From Bilabrum cf. latius (taxonomy: Eukaryota), in NCBI GenBank assembly GCA_965178125.1, contig OZ237743.1, positions 310,001 through 374,000 of the forward strand: a DNA stretch of 64,000 nucleotides. The letters are read 5' to 3'. The translations under genes and the position numbers were made by a program. Below, piece after piece: positions 1 through 42,988 of this stretch. The notes beneath the pieces were generated by a model that saw nothing but the letters and a program-made list of their open reading frames with translations, made no database searches and had not been told where the DNA came from. Within the stretch, counting starts at the first letter, position 1. Each line of letters opens with the position of its first letter.

Positions 1-1468
1 AGCCGGCCACCAGGAGGAGTGGCGGGTGCCAAGAGTCGTTGGAGCGCATCCAAACATCGTGGCAGTGAGGCACTCCTTCTTTGGTAGCTCCATGGCTTTG
101 GTTCCATGGGCAGGCGATTTTCTCATGTTTGGAGCTGTGGCGCGACGCACTACCTGGCTCGTCATGCCATTGTATCCCACCAGTCTGTAGTCCAGTACGA
201 AGAAAGTGCCTTGTTCTGGCCAGCGGGAGGCTGCGCTTTGGTTGCTGCAAGCGCTGCAAGCAACTCAGCACATGTTTCGCCGGGGGGCCGTCCATCGTGA
301 CATCAAGGCAGACAACTTTTTCCTAGCAGGGGATGGTCGTCTGGTGCTGGGCGATTTCGGGGCGGGCTGCCTTCTTTTCTACGGTGGACGAGCAGACGCG
401 TTGGAGCTAGAGTACCAGGAGCACCAGAGAGAGCAGGCGCTGGACCACGCAGCTGCAACGGGGGCAGGATCTGTGGCTTTCGATGAAGCCGGCAGGACAG
501 AGAGTGGCGGTGCCGAGGAAGCGGTGAGTGAAAGTGCATCAGATGGCACTGCAGCAGAGGCGGAAGAACAGGCGTTGCCGGAAGTTTTCGAAGGTGCTGG
601 AGAGGACGCCCTAGAGTTTCCATTCATGGTCTCTGTCACGAATTCTGGCGGCGCGTGGGACTGCCGAGCGCCTGAGCTGGTTGCAATGGGGCAACGGACG
701 CGACCGCTGAAGAAGGATTCGCACGGAAGGCCGCTCCGGACCTTGTCACAAGCCTACGAGATGGCGGATGCATGGGCCGCAGCAAAAACTGTGTGGATGC
801 TCCTTGCCAGCTCAGATTCTGCACAAACCTTTCCTAGCTCAGCGAAGCTGTACCGAAGCGAGGAGCTGCCAGCGCTTCCGAGCGCAGGACGGCAGCTTGA
901 GGCGATCCTTCGCGGGCTCCTGCAATCCAGGCCGAGCAATAGGCTTCGTCCAGAGGACGCAATCAGCGCACTGAAAGCTTTTCTCTACGGTCCAGGCACA
1001 CTGAAAGGCGTGGAGAGAGCCGCAGCGCCGGTTAGTTCCGTTCATACAGGTGTACTTTTGGCGCAACATGCCTCTGTACCGGCGGCCTCGGGTGCGGGTG
1101 CAGACAGCAGCGTCGGTGGTGCGCCAGATACGGCCTGGATGGTAGAGGAGGTTGAAGCACAGCTGCAGCTTTGCGCTGCTTTGGATGGCCCCGCAGGTAC
1201 CCATCGGGACGGTGCATCCAAGAGCATATGGTGGGGACTGGCCGGGCAGGCACGGTTTCTGCGGCTGCCCATAGGTGAGGATGCATACGACGCTTTTGGC
1301 TGGGGTGCGGCTCGGTGTGTCGACGGTGAGTCGAGCCTGTGGGACCGACAGATGAGGCGACAAACCCTGCTCAGAGGAGCGTGTCCCGCAGAGTCAGCAG
1401 CCGCTTTATCCAAGGACTGCAAGCAGCTGCTGGATGTCATCCGCAGGTATGCTCTTGGTGACTCGTGA
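1..1468 (+). CDS. Ser/Thr protein kinase, PINK1-like (5' end outside window; one in-frame TAG at 188-190)
   Basis: Frame from nt 2: HPNIV...WLVMPLYPTSL[TAG]S, HRDIKADN, DFG, GG..RAPE, ADAWA, ELPALP, LLQ..P..R; ends TGA. Confidence 0.8.
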
Positions 1469-1649
1469 GTAACCAAGAGAACAACATGTCTAGTCCACTG
1501 AATAAAGCTTGACCTGAAGAGCGCAGCCTCGACAGGCTTGCGACAAGGCCGGCAAATATTGCATCATTCCATCGGACTCCAGCATGCTATCTGAGAAAGT
1601 TACTGGCATCAATGCTCTATGGCATACAGTTCGGTCATTCGTTGCCGGG

Positions 1650-2620
1650 AACCCATACAGAGTGGTGACCTAGAGTAGCACTGGAGCCAAACGTCCACGC
1701 TCGGCCTACTAGACATTCGTGAGGCAATCCGGGGTCGGTAAACTTGTCCAATGCCGTCATTGCCGGCGGCGGCAGTCGCCACAAAACCGTAGCGCAACAG
1801 AATTTCGAATCGACATGCCAAGGACAAGGAGCGACGAGGAAGAGACAGGGGCTGCACCCGTCCCACTGCCACCAGCAGCACCTACACCTGAAGAGGCGCC
1901 TTCGCTGCATCCATCATGCCCTGCAAGTGCCTCGCGAATCCCATGTGCAAGCGCTCTCGCTTCCTGACCCGCCATGCCACCGCCACCCGGCACTGCCTCG
2001 GGCATGGCAAACACAACCACCGCCGATGCCAGTCGCAGCACGTCGTCGCGAGAGGCACCGCGCAGGAGCTCTCCCAGCGGAACCATCTCCAGCAGTCCCG
2101 CGGCCGTGCCATCTGCCACCGACTGCAGCACGCTCGTGTCAGCGTCGATGGCAAGCGACAGGTCCTTGCGCAGAGGCGAGGCCGCCGGGCTCATCGCGAT
2201 CAATCGAGTGTGCTTGGCCTGCTTGATTGCCGCAGCCGTGAAGCCATCGCTCTTCCCCCCAGCATCCACGGCGCTGTCTGCCTGCAGGAGCAGACGGGAG
2301 GACGGCGGCGTGCTTCTCATCGCAGCCGAAGCACCGCTGCCTGCCACCAGCCGGAGAGAAACGTCGCGCAGGACGTGTGTTCCCGCCCCACACAGGTCCA
2401 CAGCCGCCCATCGCATGCTGCTGGTGACCTGATCATCGAGCTCGTCCGACTGCCGCCAATAAGCGGTAGACCCAGCTACCACGGACCACGACTCATGAAG
2501 CGCGCTGCACAGCCAAGTGGCAGCCCAAGCTTGACTCAGTCGGACTTTCGTGAGGCTCCGGATGAGCCAGTTCGTTTGTGTCAGAAACGAACTATTGCAG
2601 CAGGCTGCAGTTCTCGCCAA
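1650..2620 (-). pseudogene. Truncated SAM-gene copy fused to a ~160-bp fragment of the subtilase gene
   Basis: 1810-2620 matches 12179-12989; 1650-1809 matches ~8680-8840; junction at shared CGAA; SAM domain lost, frame ends TGA at 1757. Confidence 0.75.
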
Positions 2621-2621
2621 T

Positions 2622-4218
2622 ATGGTGTACTATATGATACAAGAATAGCGCATACCTGATGCCTATCGCAGCCCGTACAGAAGCATCACCTCAATGGTGA
2701 GGAGCCAAGCAAGTCGAATAGCATCGCGTCTCATACGCGGAGTAATAGCAAGTCTTGTACATGATAGTATTATGTCAGCATGTATACTTACTCAAGTCTC
2801 TGCAGGTTTCATCTGACGGCATGCACGAGAGCTACAAGGTAGGCAGGAACGATTTTGCTCCCGAATGCACGTCGTTTTGGCATTTCCTGTGGGCGATCAG
2901 GCAGGGGTACTCCAGCGCCACAATGCCTTCCGGGTCGGGCATGGCAGGCTTGAAGCAGCTGCTGGCGCAGCTGCCTTCGGATGGCATCCGGTTGAAGTCG
3001 CTGCGGCTGGTTGACGAGACGATCGATGTTTCGGTCGCCAGGTTGCTTTGCGAGATGGTATGTTTGGACGTGGAGGGTCATAGCTTGTCTTGCTTGCATC
3101 TGAAGGACTGCATGTGGAAGCCAGGCGCCATGGCAGCACTGGCTCCGTCGATGCTGCACTCGGGGAGGTCGAATCGTCTGGAAGCACTCCTCTTGCAGAG
3201 CACTTCTGGCAAGCAATCGGTGAAAGGAGCCCATCAGGATCTGTTCGAGTCGCTCGGATAGGTGCTAGGAGACTCGCGGTGCAGTCTGTACGCGTTGAGT
3301 CTGGTGGGCATGCTCGGGTGGGACTCTTGTTCTGGAACCACTCAAGGGCCAGCCTATGTTGGCCTGTATCGGCAGAATGCCCCGATAGCGAAAGGCATGC
3401 TGAGCAACAGAAGCATTCGGTATTTGTCAACTGGGGACTGCGTGGTGAACATAGAGCAGCTGGTCGCGTGGGCCGATGCTCTGGCCAAGCATCGCTGGTT
3501 GCGGCAGCTGCTGATTTCCTTCCGGCCACACTCGCCCCAAGAATTTGTCACCTTCGGGGGTCCTGTAGCTAGGATTGTGCGTGAGAGCGTGAGCATCAGG
3601 CACCTGATGCTATTTTACAGTGTTGAGAGGTATCGGCGGACTGAAACGCCACCATTGGACCTATTGCGGGCTGCAGTGAGGCAGAACAGAGCGCTGCTGT
3701 CGATGTCGATTGGATGGAACGGCAGTGAGTATCACCGAAGACTTCAGTAGTTCAATCGTCAGCATAACATGAATTTGGAGGCGGTGACGGCCAATCCGCG
3801 GATGGTGTTCTACGACTGGTGCACGTTAGTCACTACCTACAAGAATGAGTATGTAGAGCCTGTGATGTTGCCAAGGCTCCAGGAGTACCAGTCCAGGCAG
3901 TCCAGGCTGTGGGCCTTGGTGCAGCATAGGACCGCTGCGCAGGCTCACCGGGATGCAAGGCTAGTGTGGCGAGCTGCAGCAGGGGGCAGGCCTCTAGAGC
4001 TCGCGAAGCGACTGAGGCTGGGGGTGATGGCAGGTGGGGCGGAACGGCAAGTGCTTGTGTCAGGCAGATTATTAAACGCGGCGCAAGCAGCCGAGGCAGG
4101 TGGGCATAGGGAATGCGCTCTGCTGGTGCGCCGGTCAGTAGCGCGGGAGCTGAACCGACGGGCAGTGTATTTTGGCAAGTTGGGATGCGTGCCAGGGTGT
4201 TCCTGCCTGGTGCTGTGA
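2622..4218 (+). CDS. LRR (RNI-like) + ankyrin-like protein type B1, copy 1; join(2622..2696,2806..4218), ~495 aa with TAG=Gln
   Basis: GTGAG...TGCAG phase-0 intron; LxxLxL repeats (LKSLRL, LSCLHL, LEALLL, IRYLST, LRQLLI, IRHLML); C-terminal AAQAAEAGGHRECALLV; ends TGA; further upstream exons possible. Confidence 0.7.
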
Positions 4219-5135: not shown

Positions 5136-6747
5136 ATGGTGGATTGCATTATACAGGAATGGCTACCACTCGATACCTATCGGAGCCCGTACAGAAGCAT
5201 CACCTCGATCGTGAGACGCCAGTTTCCGCCTCAAGTCGAACACGAACACTTTGCGAGAGAAGGAGCCCGCTGCACCGCATGCTTGCATGGGTTCCATTTC
5301 TTGATCTATAAGACAGTTGCCATTGCAATTTCTGCAGGTTTCATCTGACGGCATGCACGAGAGCTACAAGGTAGGCAGGAACGATTTTGCTCCCGAATGC
5401 CAATCCCTTCGGCAATTTCTGTGGGCGATCAGGCAGGGGTACTCCAGCGCCACAATGCCTTCCGGATCGGGCCTGGGAGGCTTGAAGCAGCTGCTGACGC
5501 TGCTGCCTTCGGATGGCATCCGGTTGAAGTCGCTGCGGCTGGTTGACGAGACGATCGATGTGCCGACAGCCAGGTTGCTTTGCGAGATGGTATGTTTGGA
5601 CGTGGAGGGTCATGGCTTGTCTTGCTTGCATCTGAAGGACTGCATGTGGAAGCCAGGCGCCATGGCAGCACTGGCTCCGTCGATGCTGCACTCGGGGAGG
5701 TCGAATCGTCTGGAAGCACTCCTCTTGCAGAGCACTGGCAAGCAATCGGTGAAAGGAGCCCATCAGGATCTGTTCGAGTCGCTCGGGTAGGTGCTAGGAG
5801 ACTCGCGGTGCAGCTTGTATGCGCTGAGTCTGGTGGGCATGCTCGGATGGAGTCACCCCTATGGTCCGGTTGAAGGTGTGGACTGGACTTGCATGTATCG
5901 GCGCAATGCCTTGGTGGCCAGGGGCATGCTGAGCAACACAAGCATTCGGTATTTGTCGACTGGGGACTGCGTAGTTGATACAGAGCAGCTGGTCGCGTGG
6001 GCCGATGCTCTGGCCACGAGCTATTCCTTGCGGCAGCTTCTTGTGTCGTTTCATCCTGTGACGAACGAAGCCCGCATTGCGCTCGGTGCACCAGTGGCAA
6101 GGATCGTGCGTGAGAACGTGAGCATCAGGCACCTGATATTGTTGTACGACATGGAGGACAAATGGGCGACGGTGCCGCCTCCGTTGGACCTGCTGCGGGC
6201 AGCAATCAAATAGAACAGAGCGCTGCTATCGGTATCGGTCGGATGTGATGGATGCGAGTTCTACGACAGTAGGAAAGTTTTTTATACAGAGCACGACAAG
6301 AATCTGGATGCCATTGCGATGAATTTCCGGGTCGTGTTTTACGACTGGTGCACGCGATCGATGACATTCAAGAACGAGAATGTCGAGCCTGTGATGTTGC
6401 CGAGACTCCAGGAGTACCAGTCCAGGCAGTCCAGGCTGTGGGCCTTGGTACAGCATAGGACCGCTGCGCAGGCTCACCGGGATGCAAGGCTAGTGTTGCG
6501 AGCTGCAGCGGAGGGCAGGCCCCTAGAGTTGGCGAAACGATTGCGGCTCGGGGTGATGGCAGGTGGCGCGGAACGGCAAGTGCTTGTATCAGGCAGCTTG
6601 CTAGACGCGGGGCAAGCGGCCGAGGCAGGCGGGCATAGGGAATGCGCTGTGCTAGTGCGCCGGTCGGTAGCGCGAGAGGTGAACCGAAGGACCATTCATC
6701 GTGGCCTGACAGAAGGTATGCCGACGTGGTCGTGCCTGATGTCTTAA
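5136..6747 (+). CDS. LRR + ankyrin-like protein type B2, copy 1; join(5136..5210,5338..6747)
   Basis: Paralog of B1 with the same intron position; in-frame TAG at 5788 and 6211; ends TAA. Confidence 0.7.
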
Positions 6748-7052: not shown

Positions 7053-10000
7053 TCAGGTGGCCTCCCTTTGCGCTAGCTAAGTGCTCGTTTGCCAAACAAG
7101 CTTGCCAGGCAGGTCTTCATCATCAGGTAAGTACACTCGGATGTACATCGTGTCAGTCACAGGAGACTTCACGAACCATCGGTTCAATCCACGTATGGCC
7201 TTGCAAGACTTGTGCCTGGACATAGGCTCCCCGCGAAGACCAGGCGTATCCTCCAGTGCTGCCCAGTGGGCCTTGAATGAGAAAGACTCAGGAGGATGGC
7301 GGAGATCGACAACGCTCTAACAGGAAGGGATCTGCACATTGAATGAAGAGAAGTGGCCTTTCTATTCTCCCGCCGACATCCACGGACAGTCATCGTACAG
7401 CTCCACAGCAGCCGCGATCTTGGGAGCTTCGGCCGGCTTGTCAGTTGTCGAGAGATAGCAGAGCCAGACGGACACCGTAGCGAATGCTTCAGATCGGAGG
7501 CCTCCTGGATTGCAATACACGTCACCGTTTCGCTGAGGAAATGCTGCTGTCGTGCTATGCTTCTGTTCCCGTGCGCGTGCTGTCGTACGGCCGCCAGCAG
7601 CAGCGCCTCCAGCACCAGTAGGCCAACCAGCAGCACGTTCAGCACCTCCAGCACCAGCACCAGCACCAGCACCAGCACCAGCACCAGCACCAGCACCAGC
7701 ACCAGCACCAGCACCAGCACCAGCACCAGCACCTGCAGACTACTCCATCTGCAAGTCACGAAACATGGCGTAGCTGAGCTCGACCGATACAATCACATCA
7801 CGGGTCTATAAGTTCAGAACTTTCTACGCGTTGCTTCGTGTAGAAGAAGTCGGGAGCCTAGGCAGACGTCCACTGATCCGTTCAGATCTCGCCTCGCGTG
7901 AGTCGACGAGTTCAGTGCGCAACAATGGGCGATATTCCGAACCGAGCAGGCCGCCAGAGCGTCCCCTTGCTGCCATTGGGTGACGGTCTTCAATGGCGGG
8001 CTTCAGGTACATCCGAAATAGCGGTGCATTCTCCGCAGCTACACAAATTCCACCCACAAGCTTCTAGAAGCAGCCGCAATGGCATGTCCTTAACAAGTCG
8101 TGGCAGCCTTGCCGCCCTGTGCTGCTCCCGGTTCGTGGACAGTATGCGCATCGCTTTGGAAGGAGGGATCCGGTCGGAATCGCCCATCCATCCATGGACT
8201 CGATATTGCCAAGAATTATCTTGCGAGTGCGCCCGGTGCACGTTAGCCGGAGTCTATCTGGAGCTGGGGTGTCGTCTTTCTTCATTAAAGGTTTGATTGG
8301 GGCAGCTAGTTTAGCATCGCGAGCGTTCGCCAGCAGAAGGTTGCGAGCGGGACCGCTGCCGGCTCGAACAGTCTGCAGGGCAGAAGCCATGATCGAAAGG
8401 GCCCTAGCAACCCTGGGGGCTGCAAACGATGTACCCTACGTAAAACGTGTCGGCCTGTCAACTGAGCACTCCGTGTCATCCACTGGATCCGGTGTAGCAC
8501 ATCCGCTGCCGCTGCACACTTCTGAAGGCTGAGGCGCCCTGGGCACAGTCGTGCATTTGAGCAACAGATCAGTTATGGACTCGCCGTGTGCGAACATATC
8601 GACGTAGTATCCCCAATCTGAGAAGCCAGACATGGGAATCTCCTCTCCTGCTTCGGTACGCCGGCTCAAGGTCTGCACGGAGCCCACACAGAGTGGTGAC
8701 CTAGAGTAGCACGGGAGCCAAACGTCCACGCTCGGCCTGCTAGACATTCGTGAAGCAATCCGGGGTCGCTTAACTTGTCCAATGCCGCCATTACCGGCGG
8801 CGGCAGTCGCCACAAAACCGTAGCGCAACAGAATCTCGAAGGATCTATCCACTTCTTTCATAGCCAGACCGTGAGACTGCACTTTCTCTCCAATGGAGAT
8901 CTAGACCACCCCGAGCACGGACTCCTCTCTATACGCGGACCCACGAGCGGCCCTGGTGACAGCCTGAATCCTCTGAGCCACCCTTTCGATCATTGCCAAG
9001 CCCCACCCAATGACGGATGCACGCCGCTCGGGTGTCGATAGGCACAGTCTGCTCCAGCACGACCCACTACCAGCAGGTAGCTCCAACTGATGGCCTTCGG
9101 CAGCGTCGGTCTCACCTTCGCTGAATATCGCGATTGGAACCACAATGGACTGAGTACCCCTAGCTGCTTCAGTTGCCACCACAGTGCCGTGGCTGTCGCG
9201 TTTGTCTCTTGGCGTATACGCCTTGTTCTCTCGGCCCGGTGTGTTCCAGAGTAGTCCCTCAACATCTGGCTGCCTCATGGCTGCACCTCGTGCCACTCGA
9301 CTCGTGGACCCTGGTACCACGTGCCCGCCCGCAATCGCGAAGATCTCTTCCTCCAGTCCAGTGAAGTCTCGTTTCTGCTGAAACTCATCATAGGAGTATA
9401 CGACCGCCGTATCCAGCACAAAAATCACCTGATTCAGCGCAAGTAGGCTTGAAGTAATGGGGAATTCGGTGGTTTCCTCACGAACGGCTTCATGTACACG
9501 CCACAGCGGACTCATAAAGGGCTGGCCAGCTGCGCTGTGGGATGGACCTGCTGCAGTACGAGAATCGTGGGCAGGGTCAGCACCACCGGGTACAGTGCCA
9601 CCGACTCTACCGGTAGTACCAGCCGCCACAGACGATCCTATCCCAGCGGTCCGTCCACCCGTCAGTGGACTTACCTATCTATGCACGCCATCAAGCAATG
9701 GAACACTCCCAGCCTTCGATGATGTCGCTGTCTGAATCAGATTGGTCCCTGCCTCGCTGTCTTTGCCTACAACAGGCGTTGAGTTCGGTTCCAGCTGCGT
9801 GCTCCCGAGACCAGAGCCGCTGCTGCACGGCGGCTCTGATGCGGTGCCGTTTGTACTCTCGGTCCCAACGGAGCATGCACAGCCAGAGCACGACTCCTCG
9901 CTGCCGCGCAGACCTGCCAGCTTCACGGGGTGGTCAGGGTAGTGCACGCGCACCAGCCCGCTCTTCACGATGAGTGCCTGCACCGTGGATCCCACACACG

Positions 10001-11108
10001 CTGCCATGCCGATGGACGACGGCTGTGGGATGAAGGCCCCGCTGGACATGCTGGCCTTGCCCAGCTGCTGGATGCCGCGCAGCACCTCTATCACGGCGCC
10101 AAGGCCAGCTACAGCCGGCTTGGGGGACGCGAGCTGGAAGGCGAGCTTGCGCCATGCGGTGTGAGCGAAGCTCCGGGGAGCTCCATGCTGGTCGTTGCGA
10201 TCCGGCCCGGGCGCGTAGCCGTTGATGTTGAGGTGCTGGATGTACTGCAGCCCGCCGTCCTGGGTCTCTGTGCCTCGGGCCAGTCGGTCGAGGTGGGCGG
10301 CGGCAGTAGCGAGGGCGGTCCTCTTGGCCTCTGCTGCCACGAGGCCCCACACCATCTCGGTGTCCGGGTGGCGGCTGCTGCTTGTCGCGAATGCCGAGGA
10401 CTGCAGAGCGGCCTGCACCTGGCACAGGGGCTTGAGGACAGGGGCGGCGTTGCCCGGCAGGCTGGTCATGGCAGCGAGCTTGCGGGCGCATCCAGCCGCG
10501 AAGCTCTGCAGGCCGAGCAGGTGAGCGGATGCACCGCTCGAGGTGGCGGCGCCGTCAGTGTGCTTGATGCCGATGATACCAGGAGCACCCGCGTGCTGCA
10601 GCTCATGCAGCGCTTCGATCAGCCCGCTCGCGGCGTCGTGCATGGCCTTGCCGACCTCTCTCGGGTCCATGTCCGTGACGAAGTCGACGAAGCGCTCCGC
10701 CGACAGCTCCTGTCCTTGATCCATCCAGTACATCATGTGCTTGCATTGATCATGCGCAGGCTGGGAGTCTGGCGCTGGAGGCGGATCGTGCTTGGATTTC
10801 CCCATTGTGAGAGGCTGCTGATTGTGGGTTCGCTCGGCGTTGGGGCCCGCGTCGTCTGCGATGAGAGCGAAGTCGGCGCAAGGATACGATGGATTACTTC
10901 ATATGATCAGCGAGCTAGTGAAGCAAGCCAATAATCTCTCACTGGCGTCTGACGGCATTGCGTCGAGCTTGGGATCAATAACCGACGGAGACTTCTTGAG
11001 CTCGGTTGTCCGAGTCCTGCGGCGCACTCGGTGGGCTCTTGATGGCAAGTCACCCAGAGCTAATGGCAACAGCACTGTGAGCAGACAAAGCGATGCCAGC
11101 GTGCGCAT
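7053..11108 (-). CDS. Secreted subtilisin-like S8 protease, copy 1; complement(join(7053..10855,10943..11108)), ~1322 aa with TAG=Gln
   Basis: Signal-like MRTLASLCLLTVLLPLALG; 87-nt GTGAG..GCAG intron; catalytic motifs FVLDTA, SHGTVVA, AAAGN, FSDWG..VDMFAHG, GTSFAAP in one frame separated only by TAG; ends TGA. Confidence 0.85.
7648..7731. repeat. (CCAGCA)14 coding microsatellite = (Gly-Ala)n linker of the protease; also 18009-18092
   Basis: Direct reading. Confidence 0.95.
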
Positions 11109-12989: not shown

Positions 12990-12990
12990 T

Positions 12991-23338: not shown

Positions 23339-23339
23339 T

Positions 23340-27706: not shown

Positions 27707-30145
27707 ATTCTTTTTGTTGTGGTCTCATGGCAGCTCTGCAAGCCAGTAGTGGACCGTAAGCGGCCCCTGCTGTCCTTCGCAGCGTGTCAGGTGCTACATC
27801 GAGGCATCGGGAACAATCATTCCCACGCCTTGGTGGATCCCACTGCCGGGGGCAGTGGTTGGGTCCTCCGAGCCTGGAGCTCGGAGAGGTAGGGCGTGAG
27901 TTCAGATCTGAGCAGTTCTCCATCGGAGGAGGACGAGCTGCTGGGCTCAAGCCAAGGAAATACGTGGGGCACTTCTGACTGGGCCGAATGGCTATCCGCC
28001 TCGTCTGTCGTGCCAGTGGAACCGTGGGTTCCTAGCAGTTGGGATGACTCAGCTGCGCCATCGCAAACGTGGGCAGCCTGGATGCGATCCCTGCAGGATG
28101 CGGAGGGGCGCAGTCGTGCCAAAGAGGCACCGCCAGCGCTTGGTAGACAGCACCAGCGACTGGTGGCCCACCTGACAGCGGACCCCATGGTGCTCACGGG
28201 CGACCCCGAAGCAGCACGCGCCACCAGAGCGAAGCAGGTGCAGTGGGCTACGTACCTGCGTGCAGCGTGCCCGCCTCGTACCTTCCGAGCCAAGGACTGG
28301 AAGGCCATGTCACCGGCTGAGCGGACGCTGTGTGGATTTGCCCACGGTTTCCCGATGGGCCGCACAGCAGCTGTCCAGCAGCAGGTCAAGCTGCCGACAA
28401 ACTCCATCCCGACTGAGGCTGCGGCTGCAGTGCACTGCGAGCTGGGAGCCAGCCTGCGTGAGTCGCGTCGGTTGGCCATCGCAGCGTCATCTGCACCGAG
28501 CACCCCGGTAAGCGCGGTGGTGGCGATCCCTAAGAAGAAGGTTGGCGACTATCGGCTCTTGCTGGATGCATCGGACAAGCGGGCGGGCACCCTGTTGGGG
28601 GCCAACGTGGCAGTCGAATACGAGCGCTGGACGAGTGCCCCGATGGCATCGATCGGCGAGCTGATGCGCAAGGCCGTGCGCATCTCGCAGCACACCTCCG
28701 AGCCCCTGGCGGGCCTGACAATTGACCTCAGCAAGGCCTTCTGGTAGTTCCCGCTGGCTGTTGGTGACATTCCGTATCAGCAATTGCGCATCGGCGACAT
28801 GGTGCTGCTCGGCACGCGCCTCGGCATGGGCAACAAGAGCAGCCCTGGTCACGTCACCACGGCGACGACATGCTTCGGTGACGCCTTTGAGGAGCGCTGG
28901 AATTTCGATCCTGTGCGGCCCACGACTGCAACGTCGACCTTCGTGGATGATTTTGGTTTAGTGGCACCGTTGACGCGGATTGATCACTTGGCCATGTAGT
29001 TCGTGCATGATGCTGCGCGAGTGGGCCTCCAAGTCAGCGAGTCGAAAGCACTGGAAGTGGGCACCCCGGGGCCTCGGTTCGATTTCCTGGGGTACACGGT
29101 AGCGCTGGATGAGTTCAAGGTGTACGTGCAGCCGTCCAAGGTCACGAAGGCGGTCGGGCTCATTGACGGCATCTTGGGGGCCACCCAGGCTGGGATCCGT
29201 CGGTCAACGGGAGAATCGCTGGTGGGCCTGCTGTGCTACGTGGCAGAAGCCATCCTGCCTGCCAAACCGCGCTGCAGACCTCTGTTCTCGTGGCTGCATG
29301 CCAACGAGCACGCCTCGGTACTCTCCGTTCCAGCCGAGGTTCAGCGGACCCTGCGATGGTGGCGACATGCCCTGCTGCACCAGGATGGCCGCTCGTTCCC
29401 GCGACAGCACGATCCCGAACGCGATCCAGTGATGTTCACGGACGCATCGCTGCATGGATGGGGTGGCTACTTGGTCTGGCCCTCAGGTGCCACGTAGGCC
29501 ATCTACGGCACGTGGCCGGATTCTACCTGCCTACTGTCCAACGACATCTCGGCTCTCGAACTCGGATGCATTGAGATCCTGTGTGATCAGTGGAAGAACG
29601 AACTGCGGGGACATGTGTTGCTTGTGCGGTGTGACAACTCCGCCTCTGTGCATTGTTTGCGTCGTGGGTTTTGTCGTAGTGTCCGCATGGCTCGCATCCT
29701 CTCTGACCTGTTCACCACCCTCTGCTCCCACGACGTGTAGGTTTGGAGCCGGCACATACCAGGGTTAGAGAACACCTGGGCCGACCGCTTGTCCAGGGAA
29801 GGTCACCCGACAAACTTGCCGCCGCACTGGGCATCGGTGAGGGAGCTCCCGACGCCTACGAGGACTTGGTCGAACTTGCGGCCATCAAGGCCGCCTCGAG
29901 CATCGAGGCGAATGGCACCACGGCACTTCGGCACTGGGCAGCGTACGGCCGCAGATACGGCCTCGACCTGGCGCCACCGGCCTTTGGCTCCATCGGTCCG
30001 GCACGCAACGAGGCCTTCGAAGTGGAACTCGGCAGATTCATCACGTACGTGGCGGCGGCCGAGCCGGGCATCAGCGGCGCCTCCGCAAGCCAGTACGCAG
30101 CGCAAGTGGCGTCCTTGTACAAACGACTAGGAGGAGTCGCAGTGA
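27707..30145 (+). CDS. Ngaro reverse transcriptase + RNase H (open frame; start uncertain, first ATG 28082)
   Basis: YRLLLD, DLSKAFW[TAG]FP, LGMG..SSP, FVDDF, FLGY, FTDAS..GWGG, ISALEL, CDN, HIPG.EN..ADRLSR; ends TGA. Confidence 0.9.
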
Positions 30146-30993
30146 AAGGACTCGGTGACTTTGGCCATGCAGTGGCCAGGCACTACACGGCAGCCAAGCC
30201 AACCCTTGCGAGTCTGCACCGCACGCCCATCCCGTTGTCGGCAGTGCGGCGCTTCTTTGAGTTCCAGCCATCCACCCCCGGCGAAAGTGCGGCCCAGTTG
30301 GCGGGTGCACTGGCCTTTGGGGGGACCATGCGCCTGGGCGAGGCCACCGGAGAGGCACGGGCTGCCTCTGACCCGCATCGCCTCAGGCATGTATCCTGGG
30401 CAATCGAGGACAATCAGGTGATCAGCTGCTCCCTGCACCTGCGGTTCACCAAGGCGGGTGGACCAGCCACGGTGGCTATTGCAGCCCGATCCCCTGTGTA
30501 GGTGGACGAAGGCGGGGTACAGGGCAGCACATGCTGCCCTGTTTACCTTCTCGTCCGGCACGTCGTGACAAGGTTGACCTCGGCGGGAATCCCGGTCACC
30601 TCGCCCCACCACCTGCACAACGCCTGCCAGAACAGTCAGGTGTTGTTGTTCCCGGAGATCGCATCGCCAGGTCGCCGTAAGACGCGGCACATCGTCGCAG
30701 CCGATGTCGTACGCCTGGTGCGGAGCTGTGCAAGCCACCACGATGATGCGAGTGGGTGGCATGGGCACAGTTTCCGCATCACCAGCACCACCACAATGGT
30801 GCGACTGGGCATCGAGCACGGCATTGTGCAGCGTCTTGGACGGTGGGCTTCCACCAAGAGCATGAACACCTACATCCGGCAGGAGGCCGACGGGCTGCCA
30901 GCGATCGATATTGGTTGGACGCACCTTGAGCTGCAGCGAGCACCACAGGCGGCGCTGCTCGAGGCGGTGGCACAAGCTCGGGCGTCCGACTAA
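29743..30993 (+). CDS. Ngaro tyrosine recombinase (one TAG at 30499; start uncertain)
   Basis: MRLGE (R), FTK (K), HSFR, LGRW, MNTYIR (Y); ends TAA. Confidence 0.9.
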
Positions 30994-33900
30994 TCCCAAC
31001 TAACTTGGAGACACTTTGCTTTGCTTCAACGAGACCACCCTCTGCAACCTCCCGTAAGGAAGATATGGTAAGACATGGAGAATTCGTTGTGTGTCTCCGC
31101 TGGTGGACAAATCCATCGGTGGATTCAGGCACATGGCGACGGCTCTGTGTTCGATGCCATGTCTGGTTGTATTTGGGCGGTTGAGTCTGTAAAAGAAGCT
31201 TTCATGGAAGTCACGATGTCATGGTATTAAGGAGACAGAGTCTGATTCGTTGTTGACGTCAAATGAGATGATAAGCGTCTGTGCGATGAGGATGGCTCTG
31301 CGAAGAAGGAGAACGCCGCAACACCTTGTCCGTAGGTGGGAAGAGGAATTGTAGCGTTAGACATCGTAATCTGATTAACGGAAGAGGCAGGCCACGAAGA
31401 GTGGAGGTTGGCATTTCTCCAGTCAATCGCCTCCATTCGGGGTGGAAGAGCTCAGGACTGACAGATCGTCTTGAATTCTTTTCCCACCCGCCCGGGCCCG
31501 GAGAATTCGTTGTGTGTCTCCGCTGGTGGACAAATCCATCGGTGGATTCAGGCACATGGCGACGGCTCTGTGTTCGATGCCATGTCTGGTTGTATTTGGG
31601 CGGTTGAGTCTGTAAAAGAAGCTTTCATGGAAGTCACGATGTCAGATAAATGTCTAGCGGCTGCCAGGCGGTGAGGAATCTGATGAGCCACACCGGGCTC
31701 CTACGTCAGGCTAATGGGGAAGAGTCAGCTGCATCTCGGTGCACTTTCCTATAGCATCCCACCTGTGACTGTCAATCTTGATCGGAACCACGATCGAATG
31801 GGTGCCTCTTGCTGCCTCGGTCGCCACCTTGGTCCCGTGGGTGTCTCTGATATCATAGGGCATGTAGGCCTTGCCTTCGCGGCCAGGTACTGGCTTTGAG
31901 GATTCAGCAGGAACCGCATCTGGCTCCCTCATGGCTGCACCTCGTGCTACTCGACTCGTGGACCCTGGCTCCACGTGACCGCCCGCAATCACGAAGATCT
32001 CTTCCTCCAGTCCAGTGAAGTCTCGGTTCAGCTGAAACTCCTCGTACGTGTACACGACCGCTTCGTCCAGCACAAAGACAACCTGGTACTGACTCATTGC
32101 GCTGACAACCTAGTCATCGATCTCACCTGCATCGGCAACATCGGTAGGATCCGTTTCGCCAGCATCGGCATCCTCACCGCCAGCAACAGCAGTAGCAGAC
32201 GAAGCTGAAGCACCTGCATCAGCTGCTGCTGCAGCCGCTCCTCCAGCGCCAACATCGCTTGCAGCACGATCTCGTACTGGAGGATCGTCTAGGCGATAGA
32301 ATGGGTTTACAATTGAGTACTCAGCTACGCCATCGCCTGCACCACTGCTTCGGTCGCCCGCTGAAGCAGCACCACCGGAGGCAGAACCTGTGCCTGCACC
32401 AGCATGACTGTCGGCTGAGGATGCTCCAGTCCCAGCCGAGCTGACAGGTGGCACTGGCTTGTGCACGCCATCAAGCAATGGAACACTCCCAGCCTTTGAT
32501 AGTTCTGAGGTCTGAACAAGCTCAACTCCAGTCACGCTGCTTTTGCCATTTGAAGAGACAGCTCGTGGTCTATGCTGCGACAAACTAGCTACGTCGTGCA
32601 GCTGCGAATGTGGCCGCACAGTTTCTACCGTACTAGCGGTCCCACCGGAGCATACACAGCCAGAGCACGACTCCTCGCTGCCGCGCAGACCTGCCAGCTT
32701 CACGGGGTGGTCAGGGTAGTGCGCCCGCACCAGCCCGCTCTTCACGATGAGTGCCTGCACCGTGGATCCCACACACGCTGCCATGCCGATGGACGACGGC
32801 TGAGGGATGAAGGCCCCGCTAGACATGCTGGCCTTGCCCAGCTGCTGAATGCCGCGCAGCACCTCTATCACAGCGCCAAGGTCAGCTGTAGCCGGCTTGG
32901 GGGACGCGAGCTGGTAGGCGAGCTTGTGCCATGCGGTGTGGGCGAAGCTCCGGGGAGCTCCATGCTGGTCGTTGCGATCCGGTCCGGGCGCGTAGCCGTT
33001 GATGTCGAGGTGCTGGATGTACTGCAGCCCGCCGTCCTGGGTCTCTGTGCCTCGGGCCAGTCGGTCGAGGTGGGCGGCGGCAGTAGCGAGGGCGGTCCTC
33101 TTGGCCTCTGCTGCCACGAGGCCCCACACCATCTCGGTGTCCGGGTGGCGGCTGCTGCTTGTCGCGAATGCCGAGGACTGCAGAGCGGCCTGCACCTGGC
33201 ACAGGGGCTTGAGGACAGGGGCGGCGTTGCCCGGCAGGCTGGTCATGGCAGCGAGCTTGCGGGCGCATCCAGCCGCGAAGCTCTGCAGGCCGAGCAGGTG
33301 AGCGGATGCACCGCTCGAGGTGGCGGCGCCGTCCGTGTGCTTGATGCCGTCGGCATCAGGAGCATCCGCGTGCTGCAGCTCATGCAGCGCTTCGATCAGC
33401 CCGCTCGCGGCGTCGTGCATGGCCTTGCCGACCTCTCTCGGGTCCATGTCCGTGACGAAGTCGACGAAGCGCTCCGCCGACAGCTCCTGTCCTTGATCCA
33501 TCCAGTACATCATGTGCTTGCATTGATCATGCGCAGGCTGGGAGTCGGGCGCTGCAGGCGGATCGGGCTTGGATTTCCCCATTGTGAGAGGCTGCTGATT
33601 GTGGGTTCGCGCGGCGTTGGGGCCCGCATCGTCTGCGATGAGAGCGAAGTCGGCGCAAACATACGATGTCTTACTTCATATGATCAGCGAGCTAGCAAAG
33701 GAAGCCAATAATCTCTCACTGGCGTCTGACGGCATTGCGTCGAGCTTGGGATCAATAACCGACGGAGACTTCTTGAGCTCGGTTGTCCGAGTCCTGCGGC
33801 GCACTCGGTGGGCTCTCGATGGCGAGTCACCCAGAGCTAATGGCAACAGCACTGTGAGCAGACAAAGCGATGCCAGCGTGCGCATGGTAGCTGGAAATGA

Positions 33901-35754: not shown

Positions 35755-35755
35755 T

Positions 35756-37352
35756 ATGGTGTACTATATGATACAAGAATAGCGCATACCGGATGCCTAT
35801 CGCAGCCCGTACAGAAGCATCACCTCAATCGTGAGGAGCCAAGCAAGTCGAATAGCATCGCGTCTCATACGCGGAGTAATAGCAAGTCTTGTACATGATA
35901 GTATTATGTCAGCATGCATTTTTACTCAAGTCTCTGCAGGTTTCATCTGACGGCATGCACGAGAGCTACAAGGTAGGCAGGAACGATTTTGCTCCCGAAT
36001 GCACGTCGTTTTGGCATTTCCTGTGGGCGATCAGGCAGGGGTACTCCAGCGCCACAATGCCTTCCGGATCGGGCATGGCAGGTTTGAAGCAGCTGCTGGC
36101 GCTGCTGCCTTCGGATGGCATCCGTTTGGAGTCGCTGCGGCTTGTGGACGAGACGATCGATGTTTCGGTCGCCAGGTTGCTTTGCGAGATGGTATGTTTG
36201 GACGTGGAGGGCCATGGGTTGTCTTGCTTGCATCTGAAGGACTGCATGTGGAAGCCAGGCGCCATGGCAGCACTGGCTCCGTCGATGCTGCACTCGGGGA
36301 GGTCGAATCGCCTGGAAGCACTCCTCTTGCAGAGCACTTCTGGCGAGCAATCGGTGAAAGGGGGCCCTCAGGATCTGTTCGAGTCGCTCGGGTAGGTGCT
36401 AGGAGACTCGCGGTGTAGTCTGTATGCGCTGAGTCTGGTGGGCATGCTCGGATGGGATTGGCGTTCTGGAACCACTGAAGGGCCAGCCTATGTTGGCCTG
36501 TATCGGCGGAATGCCCCGATAGCGAAGGGCATGCTGAGCAACAGAAGCATTCGGTATTTGTCGACTGGGGACTGCGTGGTGAACACAGAGCAGCTGGTCG
36601 CGTGGGCCGATGCTCTGGCCAAGCATCGCTGGTTGCGGCAGCTGCTGATTTCCTTCCTGCCAAACTCGCCCCAAGCATTTGTCACCTTCGGGGGTTCTGT
36701 AGCTAGGATCGTGCGCGAGAGCGTGAGCATCAGGCACATGATGCTATTTTACGACATTGAGCAATATTGGAGGCCTGAACTGCCACCATTGGACCAATTG
36801 CGGGCTGCAGTGAGGCAGAACAGGGCGCTGCTGTCGATGTCGATTGGATGGAATGGCAGTGAGTATCACAGAAGGCTTCAGTAGTTCAATCGTCAGCATA
36901 ACATGAATTTGGAGGCGGTGGTAGCCCATCCGCGGATGGTGTTCTACGACTGGTGCACACTAGACGTGACCTACAAGAATGAGTATGTAGAGCCTGCGAT
37001 GTTGCCGAGGCTCCAGGAGTACCAATCCAGACAGTCCAGGCTGTGGGCCTTGATACAAAATAGGACCGCTGCGCAAGCTCACCGGGATGCGAAGCTAGTG
37101 TGGCGAGCTGCAGCAGAGGGCAGACCCCTAGAGTTGGCGAAGCGACTGCGGCTCGGGGTTATGGCAGGTGGGGCAGAACGGAAAGGGCTCGTGTCAGGCA
37201 GATTATTAAACGCGGCGCAAGCAGCGGAGGCAGGTGGGCATAGGGAATGCGCTCTGCTAGTGCGCCGGTCAGTAGCGCGGGAGCTGAACCGACGGGCAGT
37301 GTATTTTGGCAAGTTGGGATGCGTGCCAGGGTGTTCCTGCCTGGTGCTGTGA
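35756..37352 (+). CDS. LRR + ankyrin-like B1, copy 4; join(35756..35830,35940..37352)
   Basis: Paralog. Confidence 0.7.
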
Positions 37353-38245
37353 GGCTAACCCGAATCATCTTAGATCCACGCAGCTTGACTACGGCCCAGC
37401 ACACCCACAGTTGAAGCAGACTAGTAGCTGCGGCGGTTGCTGTTTGGTAAGAGTGTAGTCAAGCGGGCCATCGTACTCGGGAGAGAATGCAAGCTGGCCA
37501 TGCCAATTACTGACCGTGACGAGGCGGGCTAGAAGCTGGTTAATCCCCAGCTGCGGACCAAGCTGACGACAGGGGGGCATAGGACCTCAAAAAAGAGAAG
37601 AGCCATACATGTTCGACGCCCAGGTGTGGCAATGTAGGGCACGGAATCGTTTGTGACAGCGGCTACAGTTCCAGACGGTGTCCACCACCCGATGATCCGA
37701 GCGAAGTAGAGGCTCTGGATCAGAAGGGAGCTGGCGATGAAGTGGACACATGGATGGGTAGTTGGTACAAGCACGTCGGCCGATCATTGCATACAGTCCT
37801 TCCGGGTATCGCCGCGGTGAGGAGCAAAGGAGGACAGTGGGGACACTGACGTTCTGCTTGGCTAGCGCATCAGTGCCTGAAGAAGTCATTGGACGAGCAG
37901 AAGCCAAAGTCATCGGGACATAGTTGAGGAAGAAGAAGGAGAGGAACATGGTTTCAGATACAATGCTGAAAGCAGAATGAAGTACGAGCTGCGACCTGCC
38001 ACCGCGTCGGCCGTTTTAGCCTCTGTTTGTCGGCGATCGGTATGTGCGACACAGGTGCAAGCGTCGACGGCATACTACGCCGGCGGGGTCCAGCTCATGG
38101 GAATCTGAATGCGACTTCGCTACAGCTTTTGACCTGTCATGGCCTAGCCCCCCACCCTGCATTGCTGGCCAATTGATTCTCCTTCTCAAATCTAGCTCTT
38201 TCAGAAATATCTTTACAATTTTAGCGGTCTGCAGGCTTTGGCAGC

Positions 38246-39683
38246 ATGGTGGATTGCATTATACAGGAATGGCTACCACTCGATACCTATCGGAGCCCGT
38301 ACAGAAGCATCACCTCAATCGTGAGACGCCAGTTTCCGCCTCAAGTCGAACACGAACAGTTTGCGAGAGAAGGAGCCCGCTGCACCGCATGCTTGCATAG
38401 GTTCCATTTCTTGATCTATAAGACAGATGCCATTGCAATTTCTGCAGGTTTCATCTGACGGCATGCACGAGAGCTACAAGAGAGGCAGGAACGATTTTGC
38501 TCCCGAATGCCAATCCCTTCGGCAATTTCTGTGGGCGATCAGGCAGGGGTACTCCAGCGCCACAATGCCTTCCGGATCGGGCATGGCAGGCTTGAAGCAG
38601 CTGCTGGCGCTGCTGCCTTCGGATGGCATCCGGTTGAAGTCGCTGCGGCTGGTTGACGAGACGATCGATGTTCCGACAGCCAGGTTGCTTTGCGAGATGG
38701 TATGTTTGGACGTGGAGGGCCATGGGTTGTCTTGCTTGCATCTGAAGGACTGCATGTGGAAGCCAGGCGCCATGGCAGCACTGGCTCCGTCGATGCTGCA
38801 CTCGGGGAGGTTGAATCGCCTGGATGCACTCCTCTTGCAGAGCACTGGCAAGCAATCGGTGAAAGGAGCCCATCAGGATCTGTTCGAGTCGCTCGGGTAG
38901 GTGCTAGGAGACTCGCGCTGCAGCTTGTATGCGCTGAGCCTGATGGGTATGCTCGGATGGAATCACCGATATGGTCCGGTTCAAGGTGTGGACTGGACTT
39001 GCATGTATCGGCGCAATGCCTTGGTGGCCAGGGGCATGCTTAGAAACACAAGCATTCGGTATTTGTCGACTGGGGACTGCGTAGTTGATACAGAGCAGCT
39101 GGTCGCGTGGGCCGATGCTCTGGCCACGAGCTATTCCTTGCGGCAGCTTCTTGTGTCGTTTCATCCTGTGACGAACGAAGCCCGCATTGCGCTCGGTGCA
39201 CCAGTGGCAAGGATCGTGCGTGAGAACGTGAGCATCAGGCACCTGATATTGTTGTACGACATGGAGGACAAATGGGCGACGGTGCCGCCTCCGTTGGGCC
39301 TGCTGCGGGCAGCAATCAAATAGAACAGAGCGCTGCTATCGGTATCGGTCGGATGTGATGGATGCGAGTTCTACGACAGTAGGAAAGTTTTTTATACAGA
39401 GCACGACAAGAATCTGGATGCCATTGCGATGAATTTCCGGGTCGTGTTTTACGACTGGTGCACGCGATCGATGACATTCAAGAACGAGAATGTCGAGCCT
39501 GTGATGTTGCCGAGACTCCAGGAGTACCAGTCCAGGCAGTCCAGGCTGTGGGCCTTGGTACAGCATAGGACCGCTGCGCAGGCTCACCGGGATGCAAGGC
39601 TAGTGTTGCGAGCTGCAGCGGAGGGCAGGCCCCTAGAGTTGGCGAAACGATTGCGGCTCGGGGTGATGGCAGGTGGGGCGGAA
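38246..39683 (+). pseudogene. LRR + ankyrin-like B2, copy 3, broken by the viral insertion at ...VMAGGAE|
   Basis: Matches B2 up to GGGGCGGAA(C), then switches to C10 and unrelated sequence. Confidence 0.9.
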
Positions 39684-42198: not shown

Positions 42199-42236
42199 AA
42201 TCTAATTACAATTCAAATAAATTCAAATTAGATTTT

Positions 42237-42890: not shown

Positions 42891-42988
42891 TATATATAAC
42901 TAGAGATTTATATTCCCTTAAACCAATTTTTAAAATTCACTCTAGGGTTTTTTTAAGGGGGTTAAAGATAAAATTCTAATACTATATA

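What the first reader, a model, noticed from the sequence alone, without database searches (positions are those of the whole stretch)
1..39683. Host nuclear code reads TAG as Gln while TAA stays a stop
Seen: TAG aligns to Gln codons between paralogs, in both directions: AAIK[TAG]NRALL (6211) vs AAVRQNRALL; RLQ[TAG]FNRQH (3748) vs RKQQFYR[TAG]H (24494); LGVV[TAG]IS (8901) vs LGVVQIS; CGCF[TAG]K (8064) vs CGCFQR; GE[TAG]KG vs GVQKG. It also occupies the conserved Gln of the RT motif DLSKAFW-Q-FP. In the frames I translated, internal stops were always TAG and genes ended in TAA or TGA. Known: TAA and TAG are usually reassigned together in nuclear codes, and TAG-only Gln is rare (reported e.g. for Iotanema). 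Inference: the virophage+Ngaro content recalls Cafeteria-like bicosoecids, so this may be an undescribed code change in such a lineage.
Basis: partly seen in the sequence, partly recalled or inferred. Interest (0 to 1): 0.88.

Follow-up and report, generated by a model that had tools for sequence, protein, structure and literature searches.

The report
TAG codon read as glutamine
In this piece of a microbial eukaryote's genome, and in a virophage inserted in it, the usual stop signal TAG sits inside genes where glutamine belongs, while TAA and TGA still end genes: a rare variant of the genetic code that has been seen before in a few other lineages.

Summary

- **TAG is sense.** In 4,886 non-redundant host-like codons there are 31 in-frame TAG, 0 TGA and 0 TAA. 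Off-frame counts are 93-110 TGA and 7-10 TAA.
A 17.7-kb virophage with terminal inverted repeats (45302-63024) has 69 in-frame TAG in 13 genes and no TAA or TGA. Only TAG=sense opens its genes.
- **Relatives share the trait.** Metagenome relatives L009-L015 and L017 show the same signature.
- **The amino acid is Gln.** Against L009, 28 of 80 TAG columns pair with Gln, against a 3.7% background (P=3e-20). This matches ordinary Gln columns at 39%. Two integrase TAGs fall on Gln kept in 85 and 113 of 147 distant homologues.
- **TAA and TGA are stops.** Gene ends at TAA or TGA coincide with the relatives' ends.

Not shown: tRNA-Gln(CUA), eRF1, RNA, peptides or the host's identity, because no genome is held. 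The code type is already known from Iotanema and some ciliates. A virophage clade that uses it appears unreported in my searches.

The parts
2..1468 (+). Protein-kinase-like ORF, cut by the window start. One in-frame TAG at 188-190; ends TGA.
   Evidence: The Pfam Pkinase match (2e-10, residues 8-124) spans the TAG at residue 63.
2761..4218 (+). Family-A paralogue copy 1 (485 aa, no Pfam family). TAGs at 3259 and 3748; ends TGA. Further A copies lie at 13146-14603, 23495-24952 and 35895-37352.
   Evidence: Alignment of 7 copies. dN/dS is 0.13-0.39 in segments before and after the TAGs.
5353..6747 (+). Family-B paralogue copy 1 (464 aa). TAGs at 5788 and 6211; ends TAA. Further B copies lie at 15714-17108 and 38427-39719; the last is truncated at about 39684.
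   Evidence: The breakpoint was read.
7053..10805 (-). Subtilase-like ORF copy 1 (1250 aa). It has 10 in-frame TAGs, two of them inside the S8 domain; ends TGA. Copy 2 at 17414-21166 gives an identical protein.
   Evidence: The Pfam Peptidase_S8 match (1.8e-7, residues 460-829) spans the TAGs at residues 635 and 790. Contigs of runs X1 and X6 cover 7750-8823 and 7750-9354 with 0 differences.
25489..27426 (-). C-terminal part of diverged subtilase copy 3 (7 TAGs). Its N-terminal part lies at 31642-33582 (3 TAGs). The gene is split by the retroelement.
27451..31482 (+). Ngaro/DIRS-like tyrosine-recombinase retroelement. It has 264-nt direct repeats (27451-27714 and 31219-31482), an RT ORF at 28082-30145 (5 TAGs) and a recombinase ORF at 30328-30993 (1 TAG).
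   Evidence: Repeat family D19. RVT_1 scores 22.8 bits, below Pfam's cut-off of 29.6. Phage_integrase scores 28.9 bits, above the cut-off of 27.1.
39685..45301 (.). AT-rich (33-41% GC) virophage- or polinton-like element 2, left part. It holds a D5-like helicase (40633-42198), a PolB-like ORF (42989-44767) and a fibre C-terminal ORF (44800-45417). There are no in-frame TAGs and all 4 ORFs end TAA. It continues at 63025-64000 and runs off the window.
   Evidence: Its PolB is 26% identical to the virophage PolB.
45302..63024 (.). Integrated virophage with 454-nt terminal inverted repeats (45302-45755 and 62571-63024) and a 5-bp flanking duplication ATTCT. It has 13 ORFs with 69 in-frame TAGs; 7 end TAA and 6 end TGA.
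   Evidence: Inverted repeat I1; flanks read; codon counts; ORF-length test.
48504..50273 (-). Virophage major capsid protein (5 TAGs).
   Evidence: Pfam Sputnik_MCP_1st 1.2e-22 and MCP_V20_C 2e-24. BLASTP gives 69% identity to the L009 ORF.
50392..51501 (-). Virophage minor capsid (penton) protein (6 TAGs).
   Evidence: Pfam V18-19 3e-11. 63% identical to L009.
51658..53249 (+). Protease-like ORF (51658-52263, 4 TAGs) and packaging-ATPase-like ORF (52338-53249, 6 TAGs).
   Evidence: They are 65% and 75% identical to L009 ORFs. The only Pfam matches are AAA families below their cut-offs; the protease-like ORF has none.
57468..59312 (-). Protein-primed family-B DNA polymerase (7 TAGs; the last sense codon is TAG, followed at once by TGA).
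   Evidence: Pfam DNA_pol_B_2 2.4e-7. About 55% identical to 7 metagenome loci. C-terminus read.
59454..61136 (-). D5-like primase-helicase (11 TAGs, one in SP[TAG]GTGKS just before the P-loop).
   Evidence: Pfam DUF5906 1.1e-14; alignment; 56-58% identical to 7 loci over the whole protein, plus 53% to the fragment L017.
61348..62427 (-). rve-type integrase (7 TAGs).
   Evidence: Pfam rve 4.9e-9. The TAG273 column has Q in 85 of 147 homologues and the TAG293 column in 113 of 147.

Best explanation
The organism that carries this locus translates UAG as glutamine and ends translation at UAA and UGA (the NCBI table-15 type of code). Its own genes, a retroelement and an integrated virophage have all drifted into using TAG as a third Gln codon. 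TAG makes up about 29% of Gln codons in the virophage genes and about 15% in the host-like ORFs.

Shown:
- TAG is tolerated in frame, while TAA and TGA are excluded.
- TAG columns behave like Gln columns.
- TAA and TGA ends match the homologues' ends.
- The virophage is a true insertion.

Inferred from what is established for such codes (passages of PMC5304391): a tRNA-Gln with anticodon CUA reads UAG but not UAA, and eRF1 has lost or weakened UAG recognition. The virophage and its metagenomic relatives carry the same usage because host ribosomes translate them.
For: 1. Only TAG=sense opens the virophage genes: 10 ORFs of 300 aa or more, against 0 under the standard code, TAA=sense or TGA=sense.
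2. In-frame against off-frame counts:
 - virophage: TAG 69, TAA 0, TGA 0, against 43-92, 84-87 and 114-118 off-frame;
 - host-like: TAG 31, TAA 0, TGA 0, against 39-47, 7-10 and 93-110 off-frame.
3. At DNA level against L009 there are 80 TAG-versus-residue columns in 10 genes. Q fills 28, against a 3.7% background (P=3e-20). lnL is -202.5 for Q and -251.9 for E. True Gln columns are conserved at 39%.
4. With L014 added there are 108 columns, Q in 37.
5. The partner codons are CAA 19 and CAG 18. CAA is two steps from TAG, so mutational nearness does not explain the pairing.
6. The integrase TAG273 and TAG293 columns have Q in 85 and 113 of 147 distant homologues.
7. There are 10 shared TAG-TAG columns with L009.
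8. C-termini at TAA or TGA coincide with the relatives' C-termini.
9. TAG is not depleted near gene ends: 5 of 69 TAGs lie in the last 20 codons, against 11 of 173 CAA/CAG codons.
10. Host side:
 - Pfam S8, Pkinase and (below cut-off) RVT_1 matches span TAGs.
 - dN/dS is 0.23-0.43 in segments downstream of TAGs.
 - One TAG is kept in 7 of 7 paralogues.
11. No tRNA is encoded in the window or in the 8 related loci.
12. Five TAGs are confirmed in a contig of a run from another study (X6).
Against: - No tRNA-Gln(CUA), eRF1, transcript or peptide was seen, and no genome is held.
- From host paralogues alone Gln is only marginally best: Q 6 of 21, lnL -66.7 against K -68.9. About 12 Q would be expected if TAG columns were as conserved as CAA/CAG Gln columns.
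- Fourteen of those 21 columns involve subtilase copy 3, which the retroelement disrupts and which may be decaying.
- In PolB only 2 of 13 TAG columns pair with Q.
- The host-like families have no homologues outside the window. Their 'host gene' status rests on modest Pfam matches and on selection between paralogues.
- A second element in the same locus has 0 in-frame TAGs in 1,773 codons.
- TAA as a host stop rests on one paralogous family (B). Because TAA is rare in this GC-rich DNA, the absence of in-frame TAA in host-like genes is a weaker test than in the virophage.
Confidence: 0.85

Rival explanations
1. Virus-restricted recoding, as in code-15 bacteriophages. The cell would use the standard code, and a suppressor tRNA supplied by a helper giant virus or by the element would let TAG-rich viral genes be read only during infection. 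The GC-rich ORFs would then be viral or decaying DNA.
For: - Phages with TAG=Gln infect standard-code hosts (abstract starts of PMC9523058 and 10.1101/2021.08.26.457843 in the listings).
- The metagenomic relatives show TAG=sense with no host context.
- A neighbouring element avoids TAG altogether.
- The host-only amino-acid signal is weak.
Against: - Kinase-, subtilase-, family A/B and retroelement ORFs carry 31 in-frame TAGs with 0 TGA or TAA.
- Those ORFs are under purifying selection past their TAGs.
- No tRNA is found in the window or in 8 related loci.
- All 13 virophage genes carry TAG, so there is no early/late block structure.
- No viral hallmark was found in the ORFs of the GC-rich part that were scanned.
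Confidence: 0.05
2. [quoted passage not shown]
For: - In host paralogues K is nearly as likely as Q.
- PolB ends with TAG directly before TGA.
- Only about 30 gene ends could be inspected.
- Dual-meaning codes exist in Condylostoma and Blastocrithidia (passages of PMC5304391).
Against: - Q beats the next residue by 49 lnL units with L009 alone and by 67 with L014 added.
- Conserved-Gln columns are seen in 147 integrases.
- The TAG fraction in the last 20 codons (5 of 69) is like that of CAA/CAG (11 of 173).
- No compared gene needs TAG as its end.
Confidence: 0.05
3. The TAGs are nonsense mutations in dead copies, assembly or sequencing errors, or are removed or changed in RNA by introns or U-to-C editing.
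For: - CAG to TAG is a single transition, and CAG is the commonest Gln codon here.
- Subtilase copy 3 is disrupted.
- Bellas et al. warn that many stops in endogenous viral elements are assembly artefacts (passages of PMC10120064).
- No RNA was available.
Against: - Decay would also produce TGA, TAA and frameshifts. None occurs in 4,886 host-like or 4,914 virophage codons.
- dN/dS is below 0.45 on both sides of TAGs, and the residues directly flanking TAGs align.
- Independent contigs carry the same TAGs.
- Relatives from 7 metagenome data sets share the trait, including 10 shared TAG positions.
Confidence: 0.03

Closest known systems
Nuclear code of Iotanema spirale (Fornicata): UAG = Gln, UAA the main stop (PMC5304391; abstract and passages read)
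   Same: Same assignment. UAG is decoupled from UAA, in-frame TAGs fall on Gln columns, and true ends are UAA or UGA.
   Different: That case rests on transcriptomes of conserved genes, with eRF1 inspected. Here there is only a 64-kb genomic window with lineage-specific genes and mobile elements. This host's identity is unknown. Its 55-63% GC and long intron-free ORFs give no link to Iotanema.
Ciliates with UAG = Gln only: Protocruzia tuzeti, Hartmannula sinica, Trochilia petrani (NCBI table 15; PMC11687900, passages read)
   Same: Same code table. The tests are also the same in kind: C-terminal alignments, and TAG distributed along genes like the Gln codons.
   Different: No sign of ciliate genome architecture was seen here. 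That ciliate genomes are typically AT-rich is recalled, not tested.
Endogenous viral elements of Streblomastix strix that use their host's TAA/TAG = Gln code (PMC10120064, passages read)
   Same: Integrated DNA viruses that have taken on the host's variant code, read there as a sign of long association.
   Different: In that case both TAA and TAG are Gln, and the elements belong to a Metamonada capsid group. Here only TAG is sense, and the element is a Sputnik-type-capsid virophage with rve integrase and PolB.
Code-15 bacteriophages (crAss-like and Lak phages; abstract starts only, listings)
   Same: TAG = Gln in a virus. Automated gene callers already translate the related metagenome contigs that way: P0002, P0003 and P0009 carry Q at every TAG.
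   Different: Those phages infect standard-code hosts and often carry suppressor tRNAs. Here the flanking cellular-type genes share the code, and no tRNA is encoded.
Mavirus-like endogenous virophages and Ngaro retrotransposons of Cafeteria
   Same: An rve-integrase plus PolB virophage with terminal inverted repeats, integrated in a protist genome beside a tyrosine-recombinase retroelement.
   Different: No sequence relationship to Cafeteria elements was tested. I recall that the standard code is used there (not checked). Here the retroelement sits in a subtilase gene, not in the virophage.

Membership tests
Table-15-type nuclear code (UAG=Gln; UAA and UGA stop) | In-frame TAG in genes that are otherwise intact and under selection | tested here: met
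   There are 31 TAGs in 4,886 host-like codons and 69 in 4,914 virophage codons, with 0 TAA or TGA. dN/dS is 0.23-0.43 past the TAGs. Pfam domains span TAGs.
Table-15-type nuclear code (UAG=Gln; UAA and UGA stop) | TAG columns correspond to Gln in homologues | tested here: met
   Virophage genes: Q in 28 of 80 columns, P=3e-20, lnL lead of 49. Integrase: Q in 85 and 113 of 147 homologues. Host paralogues alone are inconclusive: 6 of 21, lead of 2.2.
Table-15-type nuclear code (UAG=Gln; UAA and UGA stop) | UAA and UGA are kept as terminators and never occur in frame | tested here: met
   Seven TAA and 6 TGA ends in the virophage coincide with the relatives' C-termini. In-frame TAA is 0 against 84-87 off-frame. 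On the host side, family B ends in TAA.
Table-15-type nuclear code (UAG=Gln; UAA and UGA stop) | UAG is no longer used as a terminator | tested here: inconclusive
   No compared gene needs TAG as its end, and TAG is not depleted near ends. Only about 30 ORFs from one locus were seen.
Table-15-type nuclear code (UAG=Gln; UAA and UGA stop) | Cognate tRNA-Gln(CUA) and altered eRF1 in the nuclear genome | not testable with these tools
   No genome is held. No tRNA or other Rfam family is found in the window.
Table-15-type nuclear code (UAG=Gln; UAA and UGA stop) | UAG present in mature mRNA and Gln in the peptides | not testable with these tools
   No run on record as RNA was listed. There are no proteome data.
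Virophage, integrating mavirus-like type | Sputnik-type major and minor capsid proteins | tested here: met
   Pfam Sputnik_MCP_1st, MCP_V20_C and V18-19, all above their cut-offs.
Virophage, integrating mavirus-like type | Packaging ATPase and cysteine protease | tested here: inconclusive
   The ATPase-like ORF matches AAA families only below their cut-offs, and the protease-like ORF has no Pfam match. Both are conserved in L009 at 75% and 65%.
Virophage, integrating mavirus-like type | rve integrase, protein-primed PolB, terminal inverted repeats and a target-site duplication | tested here: met
   rve and DNA_pol_B_2 score above their cut-offs. The terminal inverted repeats are 454 nt and 99% complementary. 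ATTCT lies on both flanks.
Ngaro/DIRS-like tyrosine-recombinase retroelement | Reverse transcriptase plus tyrosine recombinase between repeats | tested here: inconclusive
   Phage_integrase scores 28.9 bits, above the 27.1 cut-off. RVT_1 scores 22.8 bits, below 29.6. The direct repeats are 264 nt and 99% identical. The subtype (Ngaro or DIRS) was not tested.
Phage-style code-15 recoding with a virus-borne suppressor tRNA | Suppressor tRNA on the element; host genes use the standard code | tested here: not met
   There are 0 tRNAs in the window and in 8 related loci. The flanking cellular-type genes also use TAG in frame.

The most novel reading that the evidence does not exclude
This is an undescribed protist lineage, neither a ciliate nor a fornicate, that has reassigned UAG alone to Gln. 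It supports a whole clade of virophages, found in at least 7 metagenome data sets, that have co-adapted to that code. In-frame TAG would then be a sequence tag linking uncultured virophages to their cellular host lineage. The TAG-free neighbouring element would be an invader that crosses code boundaries by using TAG neither as sense nor as stop.
Probability: 0.45. Interest if true: 0.8.

Novelty: new member of a known kind. Interest (0 to 1): 0.7.

Why it matters
UAG and UAA almost always change meaning together. Cases where they are decoupled are few: one fornicate, one rhizarian, one green alga and a handful of ciliates (PMC11687900 passages). Each new case bears on how eRF1 and tRNA(CUA) allow the split.

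Here the same code is visible at once in cellular-type genes, a retroelement and an integrated virophage, and in free-standing metagenomic relatives of that virophage. My searches found no paper that describes a virophage with a reassigned stop codon (judged from listings). Streblomastix endogenous viral elements with TAA/TAG=Gln are the nearest precedent.

In practice, standard-code gene calling shatters these genes. P0024 is a 136-aa piece of the integrase lying between two TAGs. In-frame TAG could also serve to assign uncultured virophages to a host lineage.

Tried and rejected
- **Whole genome:** not held, so there was no genome-wide codon scan and no tRNA, eRF1 or rRNA search.
- **RNA:** no RNA holder was listed. 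The laid runs are contigs and show neither transcription nor editing.
- **Run X10:** its row, labelled as a metagenome, held a 0.09 share. I did not lay it, and it is not used for habitat or host.
- **Host-gene homologues:** the subtilase domain had none at E<=1e-5 in the protein collection. Neither it nor the RT matched any PDB chain.
- **The protein-atlas search:** it gave no answer for the kinase ORF.
- **Other virophage relatives:**
  - The capsid protein alone and a two-row capsid alignment found nothing in viral contigs.
  - The capsid protein found nothing in the phage collection.
  - The helicase alignment found only 23-32%-identical loci, L001-L008, in viral contigs. They show no TAG-specific gain in ORF length, and 6 of the 8 have long ORFs that end at TAG.
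- the helicase alignment against database proteins first looked like independent support for Gln. P0002, P0003 and P0009 proved to be translations that already carry Q at every TAG of near-identical contigs.
- **Aphelid lead:** I recalled that the aphelid Amoeboaphelidium has a variant code. Passages read (PMC6299283; PMC5304391) say that both TAG and TAA encode Gln there, which does not fit TAA=stop here. Nothing in the window tests the lead, so it was dropped.
- **Supplements:** supplementary tables of the code papers were closed. They may list further taxa with this code.

Full report
**What the window holds.**
- Bases 1 to about 39684 are GC-rich, 55-63%. They form about 10.36-kb tandem units.
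- Each unit carries:
  - a 1250-aa subtilase-like ORF on the minus strand (Pfam Peptidase_S8, 1.8e-7);
  - two paralogous ORFs on the plus strand, called family A and family B here, with no Pfam match.
- A kinase-like ORF is cut by the window start (Pkinase, 2e-10).
- The third subtilase copy is split by a retroelement. That element has 264-nt direct repeats, an RT-like ORF and a tyrosine-recombinase ORF.
- At about 39684 the fourth family-B copy breaks off into AT-rich DNA. This AT-rich element 2 carries a D5-like helicase and a PolB-like ORF.
- Inside element 2 sits a 17.7-kb element (45302-63024) with 454-nt terminal inverted repeats. ATTCT lies on both flanks.
- The 17.7-kb element encodes Sputnik-type major and minor capsid proteins, PolB, a D5-like helicase and an rve integrase. 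It is an integrated virophage.

**Check of the observation.**
- The partner codons are CAG at 308 and 334, CAA at 330 and 635, and CAG at 914 and 1148.
- One TAG, at residue 167, is kept in 7 of 7 family A/B copies.
- The RT motif DLSKAFW[TAG]FP exists. Whether that column is a conserved Gln was not tested.

**More than chance.**
- In 4,886 non-redundant host-like codons the reading frame holds 31 TAG, 0 TGA and 0 TAA. The two other frames hold 39-47 TAG, 93-110 TGA and 7-10 TAA.
- So TAG is tolerated at near-background level, while TGA is fully excluded.
- In the virophage's 4,914 codons the frame holds 69 TAG, 0 TAA and 0 TGA. The other frames hold 43-92, 84-87 and 114-118.
- Reading TAG as sense opens 10 virophage ORFs of 300 aa or more. 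The standard code, TAA=sense and TGA=sense each open 0.
- In the GC-rich part the ORF-length test alone does not decide, because TGA=sense also lengthens ORFs there.

**Which amino acid.**
- A scan of metagenome contigs with the helicase alignment returned 13 loci. Eight of them (L009-L015 and L017) are 53-58% identical over the helicase.
- The 8 loci show the same TAG-only gain in ORF length.
- L009 carries collinear genes 39-75% identical to the window's, with 2-9 in-frame TAGs per gene; the PolB ORFs of L013-L015 have 10.
- At DNA level against L009, 10 genes give 80 columns with TAG on one side only:
  - Q fills 28, followed by T 7, E 7, A 6 and K 5.
  - Background Q frequency is 3.7%, giving P=3e-20.
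  - The log-likelihood is -202.5 for Q and -251.9 for E.
  - Ordinary Gln columns in the same alignments are conserved at 39%.
  - Ten further columns have TAG on both sides.
- Adding PolB and helicase of L014 gives 108 columns with Q in 37. That count uses those two window genes twice.
- The partner codons are CAA 19 and CAG 18. CAA is two substitutions away from TAG. Other one-step neighbours are rare: AAG 4, GAG 3, TGG 1, TTG 1.
- Against 147 distant integrases, TAG273 and TAG293 fall on columns with Q in 85 and 113 of 147. The other five TAGs lie in variable columns, one of them mostly G.

*Results against this reading.*
- PolB contributes only 2 Q in 13 columns.
- Host paralogues alone give Q in 6 of 21 columns and barely separate Q from K (lnL -66.7 against -68.9). 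About 12 would be expected if these columns were as conserved as CAA/CAG Gln columns.
- The early helicase alignment is not independent evidence. P0002, P0003 and P0009 already carry Q at every TAG of near-identical contigs.

**TAA and TGA.**
- Seven virophage genes end in TAA and six in TGA.
- BLAST end coordinates and printed C-termini show that these ends coincide with those of the L009 and L014 genes within a few residues for 8 of 10 genes. The integrase and orf447 tails differ in sequence but not much in length.
- TAG is as frequent in the last 20 codons (5 of 69) as CAA/CAG (11 of 173), which gives no hint of a dual meaning.
- On the host side, TGA ends the kinase, family-A and subtilase ORFs, and TAA ends family B.

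**Host code or virus-only recoding.**
- Three cellular-type gene families and a retroelement use TAG in frame. Pfam S8 and Pkinase matches run across TAGs.
- Segments downstream of TAGs have dN/dS of 0.23-0.43.
- No tRNA is encoded in the window (ARAGORN, Rfam) or in the 8 related loci.
- All 13 virophage genes carry TAG.
- A contig of run X6, from a different study than X1, covers 7750-9354 with no differences. It therefore carries five of the subtilase TAGs. X1 covers 7750-8823, but it may be the source assembly.
- These points favour a cellular code over phage-style suppression.
- The missing pieces are tRNA-Gln(CUA), eRF1, RNA and peptides.

**Mechanism (inferred).** As set out in passages of PMC5304391:
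- a tRNA with anticodon CUA reads UAG without touching UAA;
- an anticodon UUA would read both by wobble;
- eRF1 must lose UAG recognition.

That is the likely basis here, but none of it was seen.

**Comparison with what is known.**
- UAG=Gln with UAA kept as a stop is reported for Iotanema spirale, Protocruzia tuzeti, Hartmannula sinica and Trochilia petrani (PMC11687900 passages; PMC5304391).
- Endogenous viral elements that share their host's TAA/TAG=Gln code are reported for Streblomastix (PMC10120064 passages).
- Searches for virophages with variant codes and for further UAG=Gln eukaryotes listed no matching paper. This rests on listings of a library that lacks most subscription journals, and supplements were closed.

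**Verdict.**
- The host lineage and the 'undescribed' status remain open.
- The code is of a known kind, so this is a new member of it. The added finding is a virophage clade that shares the code.

Noticed in passing
window 39685-45301 and 63025-64000: AT-rich element 2 has a D5-like helicase, a PolB-like ORF and fibre-like ORFs. It has 0 in-frame TAGs in 1,773 codons, against 12-49 off-frame, and its 4 complete ORFs all end TAA. It would read the same under the standard code and under TAG=Gln. Its left end starts with a C-run, like the virophage termini.
   Followed up: partly
window 45296-45310 and 63016-63030: Nested insertion. The virophage lies inside element 2 with ATTCT on both flanks. 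Element 2 in turn truncates family-B copy 4 at about 39684.
   Followed up: partly
window 1-39684: Tandem array of about 10.36-kb units. Subtilase copies 1 and 2 give identical proteins. Copy 3 is 48-75% identical to copy 1 and is split by the retroelement. Word depth in the runs is high and uneven, as expected for a multi-copy family.
   Followed up: partly
L013 4063-6816; L014 from about 4000: After PolB, these metagenomic relatives carry two tandem 457-aa ORFs. The DNA is 20-25% GC, against 41-45% for the rest of the element. Each ORF has one TAG. By eye they look like methyltransferases (an NPPY motif), but no family search was run.
   Followed up: no
proteins P0002, P0003, P0009, P0024: Public protein entries for the related contigs are full-length and carry Q at every TAG, so some pipeline already applied a TAG=Gln code. 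P0024 is a 136-aa fragment, 99% identical to integrase residues 137-272, which lie between two TAGs.
   Followed up: partly
window 57468-57473: The virophage PolB ends ...FL-TAG-TGA. The relatives end ...FLET or ...F[TAG]ET and then TAA.
   Followed up: no
window 7648-7737 and 11925-11993: Hexanucleotide arrays: (CCAGCA)x15, which encodes the (AG)n stretch inside the subtilase ORF, and (GCCCTT)x11.5.
   Followed up: no
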